From the NCBI GenBank assembly GCA_018238625.1, contig JABCSY010000002.1, positions 28,097-92,096 on the forward strand: a DNA stretch of 64,000 bases, given 5' to 3'. Position numbers and translations under genes: made by a program. The DNA comes from Promethearchaeota archaeon (GTDB lineage: Archaea; Asgardarchaeota; Lokiarchaeia; Sigyniarchaeales; SOKP01). This document shows positions 32,515 through 35,617 of this stretch, piece after piece (the first letter of the stretch is position 1; each line of letters starts with the position of its first letter). The notes beneath the pieces were generated by a model, which did not search any database, was not told the DNA's origin, and was given only the letters and a program-made list of their open reading frames with translations.

Positions 32515-33084
32515 ATGTCAGAGAGAGCTGAAAAAACCGAAATTAATTATTCTTTTAAATGTCCAATTTGTAGCGAAGGAAAAATTGAAATCAGTAAGGT
32601 GACATATGATGTACCAGACGGAGATAAAATTTTAATTATTAAATTTGAATGTAACTTATGTAATTATTCTAACAATGATATAATCCCTTTAACAACTAAT
32701 TTTACGCCAGGTATTATGAAGTTAAAGGTTACAAGTGAAGACGACCTAAAATCTAAAATATATCGTTCCCCCGTAGGGGCATTAGAAATTCCAGAATTAG
32801 AATTAATTGTTAACCCGGGTCCTAGAGCTGATTTTTATTATACCAATGTAGAGGGTATTTTATTTCGATTTGAAAACGCAGTTTCAATATATCGGAAAAA
32901 TCTCGAAGATGATGACGCTCAAATAAAAGAAATTGATAAAATTTTAAAAGACTTGGGAAAGGCATTAAAGGGAGAATTTAAGTTCACACTGATTATAACT
33001 GATACAGGAGGGGGAAGTTATATTATTCCTAACGATAAATCAAAATATTCATTCGAAAAATTTGAGCCGAAAGAATTAAATTAA
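32515..33084 (+). CDS. ZPR1 zinc-finger family protein
   Basis: CPIC..C..CNY, IPELEL...PG, TNVEG, D..G.SYI. Confidence 0.88.
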   Translation: MSERAEKTEINYSFKCPICSEGKIEISKVTYDVPDGDKILIIKFECNLCNYSNNDIIPLTTNFTPGIMKLKVTSEDDLKSKIYRSPVGALEIPELELIVNPGPRADFYYTNVEGILFRFENAVSIYRKNLEDDDAQIKEIDKILKDLGKALKGEFKFTLIITDTGGGSYIIPNDKSKYSFEKFEPKELN

Positions 33085-33152: not shown

Positions 33153-34331
33153 ATGGTAATTAAAAAAGTTGGAATCCTTACGGGAGGTGGCGATTGCCCG
33201 GGTTTAAACTCCGTTATATATGGAATAATGTTGAAAGCTTATGATGCGGGCATAGAGTGTGTTGGAATCCTTAAAGGATGGAAGGGCCTTATGGAAAATC
33301 TTACAATCCCTCTTAAGATTGCAGAACACGATGACTTGCATACTATTGGCGGGACTATATTATATACGAGTAGAACTAATCCCTTTAAAGGAGCAGAATC
33401 TAAAGAAAAAGTAGCAAAAGATCTGGTAACTAAATTTGAAGATTTAGGAATAGATGCGCTTATCGCTATCGGTGGAGATTTAAAACGGTTTACATTTTAA
33501 ACCTAAAACGATACTTTAAGCGTTGCGGATGCTATGTGCAAATACTCAAAAGCGAACGTAGTTGGCTGCCCAAAAACGATAGACAACGATTTGGCTGGAA
33601 CACATTACACGTTTGGCTTCTGGAGCGCTGTACAGCTAGCCTCCAACGCGATGGATAACTTAACGACAACCGCGCGTTCCCATCAGAGAGTGTTTGTGGT
33701 AGAAATTATGGGAAGAGACGCAGGATTTCTTACAATGTATAGTGGAATTTCTGCTGGTGCCGATATAATATTAATTCCTGAATCACCATTTAGTTTAGAG
33801 AAGGATATTATTGACGTGCTTAAAAAAAGAGTCAATGCAGGATACAAATACCACATAATTGCTACCTCAGAAGGAGCTTATCCAAATTCAGAATCGTTGG
33901 AAAAGGATTTTAAAACAATATCGAAAGAAACGATTGATAAATTACCTAAAGATACATATGGAAACCCTTTGCTTGTAAAATTGAATATATCCAAAATAAT
34001 TGTTGACGAACTCAACTTAAGAGAAGATTTAAAAAAGGAATTTCAGAATAATGGGGTGGATTTTGAGTGTAGAAGCGTAGTTCTGGGCCACACAATGCGA
34101 GCAGGGACGCCTAATTCGTTCGATAGAATCTTAGGATTGAGATTTGGGTTAGCAGCTATGAATCTTGTTTTGAAATCTAAATTTGGGAACATGGTTTCGC
34201 TTCAAGGAAATAAAATTGAAACTATACCACTTTCAGAAGGGGTAAAAAAGAAATACATTACCTCGGATAGCGATAAAATGGAATTACGAGACCTATTAGT
34301 GAAAATTAGATATTTATCGAAACAAAAATAA
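33153..34331 (+). CDS. pfkA: PfkA-family phosphofructokinase, PPi-dependent type; two segments 33153-33477 and 33508-34331 (382 aa if spliced)
   Basis: TGGGDCPGLN, GGTIL.TSR, GGD/DT split by an insertion, PKTIDND, MGRDAG, LGHTMR; both ORF pieces share one frame. Confidence 0.9.
33478..33507 (+). other. Candidate 30-nt BHB-type intron in the pfk mRNA
   Basis: Two in-frame TAA; 7-bp intron stem TTTAAAA/TTTTAAA; exon stem TATCG/CGATA; 3-nt bulges AGA and AAA four positions apart; cuts give GGA GAC GAT ACT. Confidence 0.75.
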
Positions 34332-34378
34332 TTCCACTGTTTTTTTAATTGTATTGTATTAAAAAAAAGAAATATAGA

Positions 34379-35617
34379 TTAACCATAATGTTTTTCCTCT
34401 TCGTGTTCTGCATCAATCGCGTCTTGCTCTACATCACGACCAAGCCATTTTTCGCTTAGCTTCTCTTTATAATATTCATGTTGGATGATGAGATTCATTA
34501 TTTCCGTTGTTCCGGTCCAGATCTCTCCTATACGAGCGTCTCTCAAAAGACGTTCTATTGGATATACGGTTGTATACCCGATACCTCCCATTATCTGCAT
34601 GGATTTGTTAATAACTTTCCAGCACGCTTTAGTTGAAAATTTTTTGGATTCAGAAACTAATCTTCTTTGAAGAGCGGGTGGCGCTCCAGCATCTATAGAT
34701 TTCGCAGTATTAAACACAATTGCTCTTGTTGCATCTAAATAAGTAATGCAATCCGCTATCATGAAGTTAACGGCTTGAAAATTCTTTATAATCTGTCCAA
34801 ACGCTTTTCTTTTGGTGCTATATTTGGTTGCTATTTGAAAACAAGCGCGTGCCAATCCGAGAAAACCAGAAGCTGTAGTTAATCGTTCTGGAACCATCAT
34901 GTGGTAAAATATTTTACCCCCATCTCCTTCTCCCAGGATTAAATTCTCCTTAGGGACTTCCACATCTTTAAAAACTAACCTCCCTGCTCCACCGCCTCTA
35001 GTACCTAATAAACCGTAAATATATGCTGCGTCTACTGCATCGCTTTTATCAACAATAAATAAGCTTAAAGAATCTCGAGGGGACGCTTTAGGATCCGTTT
35101 TAGCGTAAACCAAAAAGAAATCAGCACCTTCAGCGCCAACAACGAATCGTTTTTCTCCATTTAATATGTAGTGATCTCCTTCTTTTACAGCAGTAGATGT
35201 GGCTCCAAAAAAATCCGAACCGCCTCTTGGTTCAGTTAACGCTTCAGCAGTAAATTTCTTACCTTCGCACATAGGTTTTAAATAATTTAACTTTTGGTCT
35301 TCTGTGCCAAATTTATTAAGCGCTTCCCCACATATGCTCGGTAACGAAAATAAACAGGTTAGGGAACTTCCTAGTACGCCAACTTCTTCTTGAGCAATAA
35401 TTTCACTTTCCCAATTTAAACCACGACCACCGTATTTCTTTGGAAACCTTATTCCAATCAAATTTTGTTTAGCTAATGCTTCCATCCACTCACTTGGATA
35501 TTGAATCTCGTCTTTATCCATTTGTCTTAATAATGAAGGTGGTACAGCGTTTTTAACGAACTCTCGAACTTCTTCTCTAAATTTTTTATTTTCTTCGCTT
35601 ATTAAATAATCATACAT
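34379..35617 (-). CDS. Acyl-CoA dehydrogenase
   Basis: LTEPRGGSD, LNGEK.F, RKAFG..I..FQ, QIMGGIGY, I..GT.EI. Confidence 0.93.
   Translation of the reverse strand: MYDYLISEENKKFREEVREFVKNAVPPSLLRQMDKDEIQYPSEWMEALAKQNLIGIRFPKKYGGRGLNWESEIIAQEEVGVLGSSLTCLFSLPSICGEALNKFGTEDQKLNYLKPMCEGKKFTAEALTEPRGGSDFFGATSTAVKEGDHYILNGEKRFVVGAEGADFFLVYAKTDPKASPRDSLSLFIVDKSDAVDAAYIYGLLGTRGGGAGRLVFKDVEVPKENLILGEGDGGKIFYHMMVPERLTTASGFLGLARACFQIATKYSTKRKAFGQIIKNFQAVNFMIADCITYLDATRAIVFNTAKSIDAGAPPALQRRLVSESKKFSTKACWKVINKSMQIMGGIGYTTVYPIERLLRDARIGEIWTGTTEIMNLIIQHEYYKEKLSEKWLGRDVEQDAIDAEHEEEKHYG

What the first reader, a model, noticed from the sequence alone, without database searches (positions are those of the whole stretch)
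33456..33523. Candidate BHB (tRNA-type) intron in a protein-coding gene: active site of PPi-phosphofructokinase
Seen: the two pfk ORF pieces are in one frame, separated by exactly 30 extra nt containing TAA at 33498 and 33504, inside the GGDDT motif. Manual folding gives exon stems GCGCTTA/TAAGCGT (33456-62/33517-23) and TATCG/CGATA (33467-71/33509-13); a 4-position centre GTGG/CCTA (two G-C pairs, one U.U, one G.A, so relaxed); 3-nt bulges AGA (33476-78) and AAA (33506-08); and a perfect intron stem TTTAAAA/TTTTAAA (33479-85/33495-501) with a 9-nt loop. Established: EndA cuts after the second base of each bulge. Applying that rule removes 33478-33507 and yields GGA GAC GAT ACT TTA = GDDTL, a complete 382-aa enzyme. 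The rest of the gene shows no decay. Archaeal mRNA introns of this type are best known from crenarchaeal cbf5. Inference: EndA/RtcB mRNA splicing in a central metabolic gene of an Asgard archaeon, possibly one of many such mini-introns mis-annotated as pseudogenes, and conceptually close to eukaryotic non-spliceosomal HAC1/XBP1 splicing.
Basis: partly seen in the sequence, partly recalled or inferred. Interest (0 to 1): 0.92.

Follow-up and report, generated by a model that had tools for sequence, protein, structure and literature searches.

The report
Mini-intron inside an Asgard phosphofructokinase gene
A 30-base insert that breaks a sugar-metabolism gene of an Asgard archaeon looks like a tRNA-type intron cut out of the messenger RNA, and similar mini-introns sit in several other enzyme genes of its relatives, a gene structure so far confirmed in archaea for only one gene family.

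Summary
A PfkA-family gene (33153-34331, +) carries an exact 30-nt insert (33478-33507) with two TAA codons, and removing it gives an intact 382-aa ORF.

It is neither decay nor an artefact:
- The same insert is in 11 of 37 same-genus genomes. A second 31-32-nt insert, near codon 13, is in 10 of 37.
- All spliced ORFs are intact, with dN/dS about 0.05.
- Exon flanks are frozen where an insert is present.
- The second site is a canonical bulge-helix-bulge (centre helix paired in 17 of 17 sequences, with compensatory changes). The window's own site is a relaxed version.

The genome encodes two EndA-family proteins and RtcB.

Homology screens found the same kind of 29-35-nt insert in five more genes: a BcrAD/BadFG ATPase, a thiolase-like gene with up to four in one genome, an amidohydrolase, an acyl-CoA-dehydrogenase-like gene and a small ORF. 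Where tested, the protein-preserving junction is the one with bulge-helix-bulge geometry.

No RNA read covers the junction, so splicing is inferred, not shown. They are few per genome (three found in this one), not many. My literature searches found only crenarchaeal cbf5 as a confirmed coding-region case.

The parts
33153..33477 (+). pfk exon 1 (codons 1-108 plus the first base of codon 109)
   Evidence: ORF list and translation. Pfam PFK profile 1-101.
33478..33507 (+). 30-nt mini-intron (site B). The boundaries may equally be 33479-33508.
   Evidence: Exact insertion relative to 26 of 37 same-genus orthologs. In-frame TAA at 33498 and 33504. Removal restores the conserved GGDDT motif and a 382-aa ORF.
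33508..34331 (+). pfk exon 2 with stop codon
   Evidence: Pfam PFK profile 101-276. No further gaps of 3 or more columns against 36 orthologs, apart from one 6-nt in-frame indel in G053.
33467..33471 (+). 5' strand of exon-exon helix h, pairing with 33509-33513
   Evidence: 5 of 5 pairs, invariant in 15 of 15 distinct insert-bearing sequences. Complete in 9 of 9 bearing rows but only 4 of 23 insert-free rows.
33472..33475 (+). 5' strand (exon) of centre helix H, pairing with 33502-33505 (intron)
   Evidence: In the window, two G-C pairs plus U.U and G.A. Across 15 sequences, 68.3% of cells are paired. One pair never forms and one varies as U-G 6, U-A 3, C-G 2, unpaired 4.
33476..33478 (+). 5' three-base bulge. 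Predicted cut after 33477.
   Evidence: Geometry read. The cut rule is established knowledge of EndA and was not tested here.
33479..33501 (+). Intron hairpin h' (7 pairs 33479-85/33495-501, 9-nt loop)
   Evidence: Present in the MFE fold. 99.0% of cells paired in 15 sequences.
33506..33508 (+). 3' three-base bulge. Predicted cut after 33507.
   Evidence: Geometry read.
33456..33462 (+). Outer exon-exon stem, pairing with 33517-33523
   Evidence: 89.5% of cells paired. Two pairs change on both sides (A-U, C-G, U-A, G-C types) but are also unpaired in 5 and 6 of 15 sequences.

Best explanation
The 30 nt at 33478-33507 are a bulge-helix-bulge (BHB) mini-intron inside the coding sequence of a PfkA-family phosphofructokinase gene of a Promethearchaeota (Loki-type Asgard) archaeon.

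Inferred mechanism. In the pre-mRNA, exon bases on both sides pair with each other (helix h). Four exon bases pair with the 3' end of the insert (helix H). The insert folds into a hairpin (h'). This leaves two 3-base bulges. The two-subunit splicing endonuclease (EndA alpha and beta) cuts in each bulge. RtcB joins the exons, restoring the active-site motif and a 382-aa enzyme. The insert is released, probably as a small circle.

Shown here:
- the insert is exact, conserved and polymorphic among species;
- the gene is under purifying selection;
- the structure and the exon flanks are conserved;
- the enzymes are encoded;
- the same kind of element occurs at about a dozen sites in six genes of the genus.

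Inferred, not shown: that cutting and joining take place at the RNA level, and that EndA and RtcB carry them out.
For: 1. Exactness. The Pfam profile is contiguous across the break. All 20 first orthologs give stop-free ORFs once inserts are removed at the predicted cuts.

2. Recurrence with polymorphism. Site B is in 11 of 37 genus genomes and site A in 10 of 37, with 15 of 37 carrying at least one. Among 80 GTDB loci, site B is in 14 and site A in 18. On a 32-row gene tree, site A needs at least 8 changes and site B at least 6.

3. Selection. The median dN/dS is 0.055 for 63 bearing-bearing pairs and 0.050 for 121 free-free pairs.

4. Structure.
- Site A: centre helix paired in 17 of 17 distinct sequences, including one C-G to U-A double change. 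The first two h' pairs change on both sides in 2 sequences. One variant has a wholly different hairpin with 9 perfect pairs in register.
- Site B: 91.0% of cells paired, against 33.6-46.4% for slid controls.

5. Exon flanks. The site B exon helix is paired in 45 of 45 cells in 9 bearing rows, which show 2 flank haplotypes. In 23 free rows it is paired in 87 of 115 cells, with 19 haplotypes. For site A the figures are 44 of 45 against 82 of 115.

6. Enzymes. There are two EndA-family ORFs of 200 and 201 aa and one RtcB. Passages read in PMC5829648 state that Asgard archaea have the (alpha-beta)2 EndA with the L1 insert linked to broad specificity.

7. Generality.
- BcrAD/BadFG ATPase gene: 30-35-nt insert in 4 of 30 loci, with compensatory hairpin changes.
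- Thiolase-like gene: six sites, up to four in one genome. At each site one protein-preserving junction has centre helix 4 of 4.
- Amidohydrolase gene: 2 of 30 loci, with 4 of 4 only at shift 0.
- In three of three new G017 cases, the junction that aligns best to the intact orthologue is the BHB junction.

8. ARAGORN finds tRNA introns of 5-35 nt in 11 of 21 detected tRNA genes of this genome.
Against: - No RNA read or contig covers the junction. RNA runs X18 and X20 lie only on 33808-34332.
- The window's own centre helix has only two standard pairs, and one of its four positions never pairs in any of the 15 sequences.
- The MFE fold chooses a different centre, and its z-score is only about -2.2.
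- Related sequences are not independent, so the shuffle controls and the bearing-versus-free comparison overstate support.
- A genome-wide scan for BHB geometry that fuses two open frames gave no excess over phase-incompatible controls (score 14: 97 against 106.5; score 15: 6 against 5.5). The motif alone is therefore not diagnostic.
Confidence: 0.8

Rival explanations
1. The gene is a pseudogene and the insert is an inactivating insertion.
For: Two in-frame stops. An annotation pipeline would call the gene broken.
Against: - The insert is kept in 11 of 37 species, and the rest of the ORF is intact in all.
- dN/dS is 0.055, the same as for insert-free orthologs.
- Only one PFK-family match was found in the genome with this query.
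- Ordinary indels in the family lie elsewhere and are coding. One example is a 30-nt stop-free insertion at reference nt 244 in 8 distant loci.
Confidence: 0.02
2. The insert is an assembly or sequencing artefact.
For: The genome is a metagenome-assembled draft of 201 contigs with 7.59% contamination.
Against: Homologous inserts occur in independent assemblies of many species, with sequence differences. A DNA contig of run X2 spans the site without a gap, though that run may be the source sample.
Confidence: 0.01
3. The ribosome skips the insert (translational bypassing or another recoding event), with no RNA cutting.
For: The insert is short, holds a hairpin, and has a stop codon soon after the break. 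These features are recalled from phage T4 gene 60.
Against: - By reading, no matched take-off and landing codons are shared by the two site B sequence types or by site A.
- Bypassing does not need the exon-to-insert centre helix, which covaries at site A.
- It also does not need the frozen exon-exon helix.
- Twelve sites in six genes all fit one geometry, with 3-base bulges.
Confidence: 0.04
4. The insert is removed from the RNA, but by a nuclease or ligase other than EndA and RtcB, or it is a regulated, mostly retained element that keeps the enzyme off.
For: The window's centre helix is weak. Nothing here ties the cut to EndA except the geometry.
Against: Geometry, size (29-35 nt) and bulge positions match EndA substrates. 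tRNA introns of similar size are frequent in the same genome. No Rfam family, ribozymes included, matches at the insert.
Confidence: 0.1

Closest known systems
BHB intron in crenarchaeal cbf5 pre-mRNA (Watanabe 2002; Yoshinari 2006; Yokobori 2009, PMC2738675, passages read)
   Same: A short intron inside a protein-coding sequence, with a bulge-helix-bulge at the exon-intron borders. It occurs in lineages with a hetero-oligomeric EndA and is gained and lost among related species.
   Different: - Different phylum (Promethearchaeota).
- Different genes: metabolic enzymes rather than an RNA-modification enzyme.
- Two sites in one gene here, and up to four in a thiolase-like gene of a relative.
- Splicing of cbf5 was shown experimentally. 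Here it was not.
Archaeal tRNA introns, including the heavily interrupted tRNA genes of Asgard archaea (bioRxiv 10.64898/2026.10.13.758758 and PMC11291895, passages read)
   Same: The same motif and presumed enzymes, similar sizes, and many non-canonical positions. The motif is half exon and half intron, and gains recur.
   Different: - The host RNA is an mRNA.
- The exon half of the motif must also encode conserved protein residues.
- Removal is needed to restore a reading frame rather than a cloverleaf.
BHB intron in the 5' UTR of Haloferax volcanii HVO_1309 (PMC7714728, abstract and passages read)
   Same: An EndA substrate in an mRNA, excised as a circle and confirmed in vitro.
   Different: It lies in the untranslated leader (46 nt) and does not interrupt the coding sequence.
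HAC1/XBP1 unconventional mRNA splicing in eukaryotes (recalled; mentioned in PMC4090602 passages)
   Same: Protein-only, spliceosome-independent removal of a short intron from an mRNA, with tRNA-ligase-type joining (RtcB in animals).
   Different: The nuclease there is Ire1, acting on loop motifs rather than on a BHB. That splicing is also a stress-regulated switch, and no regulation is known here.

Membership tests
Archaeal BHB intron (EndA substrate) | [quoted passage not shown] | tested here: inconclusive
   The window's copy has both bulges, but only 2 of 4 centre positions form standard pairs. Over 15 site B sequences, 68.3% of centre cells pair and one position never does. This fits a relaxed form, not the strict one. 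Site A in the same gene of relatives meets the strict form in 17 of 17 sequences.
Archaeal BHB intron (EndA substrate) | Flanking helices: exon-exon (h) and intron hairpin (h') | tested here: met
   h is 100% paired and h' 99.0% paired in 15 sequences. Both appear in the MFE fold.
Archaeal BHB intron (EndA substrate) | Cuts in the bulges give a functional joined product | tested here: met
   Removal at the predicted bonds restores the motif and an intact ORF in 20 of 20 orthologs. At the thiolase-like, amidohydrolase and G017 sites, the protein-preserving junction is the one with centre helix 4 of 4.
Archaeal BHB intron (EndA substrate) | Host encodes the splicing endonuclease and an RtcB-type ligase | tested here: met
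   PF01974 matches at two loci, both above cut-off, as ORFs of 200 and 201 aa. PF01139 matches at 556.8 bits. Which ORF is catalytic, and how broad its specificity is, was not tested.
Archaeal BHB intron (EndA substrate) | Excision and exon joining at the RNA level | tested here: inconclusive
   One attempt was made. The RNA runs do not cover the junction. A contig lacking the 30 nt in run X17 is 93% alike, and the tool rates that run as probably DNA.
cbf5-type pre-mRNA intron | Located in the cbf5 (pseudouridine synthase) gene of Crenarchaeota | tested here: not met
   The gene is a PFK-family gene and the organism is Promethearchaeota. It works like the cbf5 intron but is not a member of that set.
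Translational bypass element (T4 gene 60 type) | Matched take-off and landing codons around the skipped stretch | tested here: not met
   By reading the 15 site B and 17 site A sequences, no shared codon pair flanks the inserts in all variants.

The most novel reading that the evidence does not exclude
A family of Loki-type Asgard archaea carries a small, dynamic population of about 30-nt protein-spliced (BHB) introns inside protein-coding genes. I saw at least 12 sites in six genes and up to four in one gene. They were gained and precisely lost many times between species, with the exon sequence co-adapted to the splicing motif. If so, the closest prokaryotic relatives of eukaryotes already have interrupted protein genes that depend on RNA splicing for expression. 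That would open the possibility of splicing-level control of central metabolism.
Probability: 0.65. Interest if true: 0.9.

Novelty: new member of a known kind. Interest (0 to 1): 0.82.

Why it matters
Passages read in PMC2738675 (2009) and PMC7714728 (2020) say that cbf5 is the only archaeal coding sequence with a confirmed BHB intron. My five literature searches found no report of such introns in Asgard protein genes.

If these inserts are spliced, three things follow:
1. Genes now called pseudogenes in Asgard genomes, here in glycolysis, fatty-acid and CoA metabolism, are in fact functional. This changes metabolic reconstructions.
2. Protein-catalysed mRNA splicing is a recurrent feature in the lineage nearest to eukaryotes, not a crenarchaeal curiosity.
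3. The polymorphic sites give a natural data set on how introns enter and leave coding sequence, and on how exons adapt to a splicing motif.

The claim is directly testable with RT-PCR, or with metatranscriptome reads, and with recombinant EndA.

Tried and rejected
**RNA evidence.** The look-up of sequencing runs listed 21 runs, and four were laid.
- The RNA runs X18 and X20 cover only 33808-34332 of pfk, so they say nothing about the junction.
- Run X17 has one 983-nt contig that lacks 30 nt at 33480. It differs at 65 other letters, and the run is rated probably DNA. I read it as an insert-free relative, not as spliced RNA.

**Structure-only census.** A scan of 2990 adjacent open-frame pairs for BHB geometry showed no excess of phase-compatible over phase-incompatible hits. 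I rejected it as a detector.

**Nucleotide comparison.** Comparing 272 kb of G016 with G000 (143 kb aligned) showed only what look like intergenic indels.

**Homology screens.** These used paralogues, then 1.93 Mb of G017 plus 0.27 Mb of G016.
- They recovered pfk and the ATPase gene as positive controls.
- They also gave many single in-frame stops and overlapping-frame pairs. I did not treat these as introns; they are probably Sec or Pyl codons, antisense shadows, or adjacent genes that are fused in the paralogue.
- Only 1832 of 7862 G000 pair members had any hit in the relatives' sequence, so the census is incomplete.

**Other readings rejected.**
- A split enzyme made of two polypeptides. 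The break lies inside the active-site motif, and site A would leave a 13-residue piece.
- A mobile repeat. The insert is unique in the genome.
- A known RNA family. No Rfam match lies at the insert.

**Not completed.**
- ACAD-like gene. A genus survey gave coordinates only. Span arithmetic hints at about 33 extra nt in G017, G004, G005 and G018, but I could not look at the sequences.
Supplementary files of the papers were not seen. The tRNA-intron preprint's supplements might bear on coding genes.

Full report
**What is in the window.** The + strand carries a PfkA-family phosphofructokinase gene from 33153 to 34331. It is flanked by a ZPR1-like gene (32515-33084) and an acyl-CoA dehydrogenase gene on the other strand (34379-35617). 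The gene is one reading frame interrupted by 30 nt (33478-33507) that hold TAA codons at 33498 and 33504. The two pieces match Pfam PFK profile positions 1-101 and 101-276, so nothing is missing and nothing else is added.

The thermodynamic fold alone is weak support. The MFE structure keeps the outer, exon and intron stems but pairs the centre differently, and its z-score is -2.18, with 8 of 200 shuffles as good. The insert has no other copy in its 4.29-Mb, 201-contig genome. No Rfam family matches it.

**Organism and enzymes.** Record titles of near-identical orthologs name Promethearchaeota or Promethearchaeia MAGs, that is Loki-type Asgard archaea. The genome encodes two EndA-family ORFs of 200 and 201 aa and one RtcB. 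Passages of PMC5829648 state that Asgard archaea carry the (alpha-beta)2 EndA with the L1 insert associated with broad substrate range. ARAGORN finds only 21 tRNA genes in this 98%-complete genome, 11 of them with introns of 5-35 nt. This fits reports of heavily interrupted Asgard tRNA genes (bioRxiv 10.64898/2026.10.13.758758 and PMC11291895, passages read).

**Comparative test of the pfk insert.** Same-genus orthologs were found in 38 of 42 genomes, and 37 were usable.
- The 30-nt insert (site B) is present in 11 of the 37.
- A second insert of 31-32 nt (site A), in the N-terminal glycine-rich motif near codon 13, is present in 10.
- Fifteen genomes carry at least one insert and six carry both.
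- Among 80 loci from GTDB species genomes, site B is in 14 and site A in 18.
- In an order-wide draw of 151 genomes, in-frame stops of this kind appear only in rows of the window's own family, not in the 18 rows of the three other families.

Removing the inserts at the predicted bonds gives stop-free ORFs in 20 of 20 orthologs. Nineteen are complete at 382 aa and one is cut by a contig end. By contrast, an ordinary 30-nt length difference in distant orthologs lies in a variable loop and has no stops.

Median dN/dS is 0.055 for 63 bearing-bearing pairs and 0.050 for 121 free-free pairs. On a 32-row gene tree, site A needs at least 8 changes of state and site B at least 6. Sister pairs with short branches differ in insert content. 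The inserts are therefore precisely lost, or gained, often.

**Structure.**
- The exon helix is invariant and the hairpin is 99.0% paired.
- The centre helix is only 68.3% paired. One position never pairs. One varies as U-G, U-A, C-G or unpaired, and the window's type is the unpaired one.

For site A, 17 distinct sequences give 92.3% against 30.7-52.2%.
- The centre helix is paired in 17 of 17, including a C-G to U-A double change where the exon change is synonymous.
- Two variants have unrelated hairpins that keep the geometry, one of them with nine perfect pairs in register.

Site A is thus a canonical motif, and the window's site B a relaxed one.

The exon flanks tell the same story. The five exon-exon pairs at site B are formed in 45 of 45 cells of 9 bearing rows, which show two flank haplotypes. 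In 23 insert-free rows they are formed in 87 of 115 cells, with 19 haplotypes. Site A gives 44 of 45 against 82 of 115. These rows are related, so the contrast is descriptive, not a test.

**Is it one of many?** A scan for motif geometry that fuses two long open frames showed no excess over its internal control, so geometry alone cannot find them and there are not hundreds. Homology screens did find more.

- *BcrAD/BadFG ATPase.* Using paralogues, a BcrAD/BadFG-family ATPase gene of this genome (C59:8501-9321) proved to be split by 35 nt inside a conserved motif. Pfam profile coverage is 1-136 and 135-271. The insert is in 4 of 30 genus loci at 30-35 nt, with compensatory changes in the hairpin, a conserved 3' end, and a centre helix of 4 of 4.
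- *Positive controls.* Using 1.93 Mb of G017 and 0.27 Mb of G016 as reference, both positive controls were recovered.
- *New cases in G017.* Three were found: an amidohydrolase-family gene, an acyl-CoA-dehydrogenase-like gene and a small ORF with no Pfam family. In each, the junction that aligns best to the intact orthologue of this genome is the one with motif geometry, with centre 4 of 4 and hairpin 5-8 pairs. The amidohydrolase insert recurs in 2 of 30 loci with a different hairpin, and has 4 of 4 only at shift 0.
- *Thiolase-like gene.* A thiolase-like gene of this genome (C71:39597-40904) carries a 30-nt insert next to a conserved histidine motif. Across 30 genus loci this gene shows five insert blocks plus one offset site, each 29-32 nt. 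One genome (G004) carries four of them. At every site exactly one of the protein-preserving junctions has centre helix 4 of 4.

In all I saw 12 sites in six genes. Three interrupted genes are in the window's genome, from an incomplete census.

**RNA evidence.** None was obtained. A DNA contig spans the insert. True RNA runs cover only the 3' part of pfk. One contig without the 30 nt comes from a 93%-alike organism in a run that is probably DNA.

**Reading.** The best explanation is a BHB intron removed from the pre-mRNA by EndA and RtcB, with confidence about 0.8. A pseudogene, an artefact, translational bypassing and a two-polypeptide enzyme are each contradicted by the data above. Removal by another activity, or mostly regulatory retention, cannot be excluded.

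The enzyme's phosphoryl donor is not settled. NCBIfam gives an ATP-PFK subfamily model above cut-off and PFK_mixed below.

**Comparison with the known.** Passages read in PMC2738675 and PMC7714728 say that cbf5 of Crenarchaeota is the only confirmed coding-sequence case, and that a Haloferax 5' UTR is the only other mRNA case. Five searches and one title search found no report for Asgard protein genes. PNAS 2011 (PMC3064391) is not held, and supplements were closed. I file this as a new member of a known kind: the same motif and presumed enzymes, in a new lineage and new genes. Several sites per gene is the new aspect.

Noticed in passing
G000 C71:39597-40904 (locus L285/L286); relatives L290, L292, L300, L301, L314: A thiolase-like gene has six different 29-32-nt insert sites across the genus. 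G004 (L300) carries four in one gene, and G042 and G051 carry three each. All fit the bulge-helix-bulge geometry.
   Followed up: yes
G000 C59:8501-9321 (locus L135/L155): A BcrAD/BadFG-family ATPase gene is split by a 35-nt insert inside a conserved motif. The insert is in 4 of 30 genus loci, with compensatory hairpin changes.
   Followed up: yes
G000 contigs C26, C32, C119 (TGA); C27, C89, C91, C109 (TAG); others: Many gene pairs are separated by a single in-frame TGA or TAG, where an intact homologue reads through. ARAGORN also calls a tRNA with a CUA anticodon (Pyl) that has an intron. These are probably selenocysteine and pyrrolysine codons. Some TAA cases may be antisense shadows.
   Followed up: partly
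G000 whole genome: ARAGORN detects only 21 tRNA genes in a 98%-complete genome, 11 of them with introns. Many tRNA genes are probably hidden by multiple or non-canonical introns.
   Followed up: no
window 32515-33084 (+): The gene just upstream of pfk encodes a ZPR1-type zinc-finger / jelly-roll protein (Pfam PF22794 and PF03367).
   Followed up: no
G015 C2:85985-86086 (locus L015): A 102-nt partial duplicate of the pfk 3' end lies about 100 nt downstream of the gene in one relative.
   Followed up: no
window 33995/34332, run X20: One RNA-run contig joins the two strands of the pfk 3' region (an 'opposite strands' joint). It is probably an assembly chimera or a fold-back artefact.
   Followed up: no
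G000 C138:4279-11582, C144:2580-6140, C68:7638-11127: A family of large (about 1000-1160 aa) paralogous genes appears as several abutting or overlapping frames in some copies and as one frame in others. Whether they are subunits, fusions or frameshifts is not resolved.
   Followed up: no
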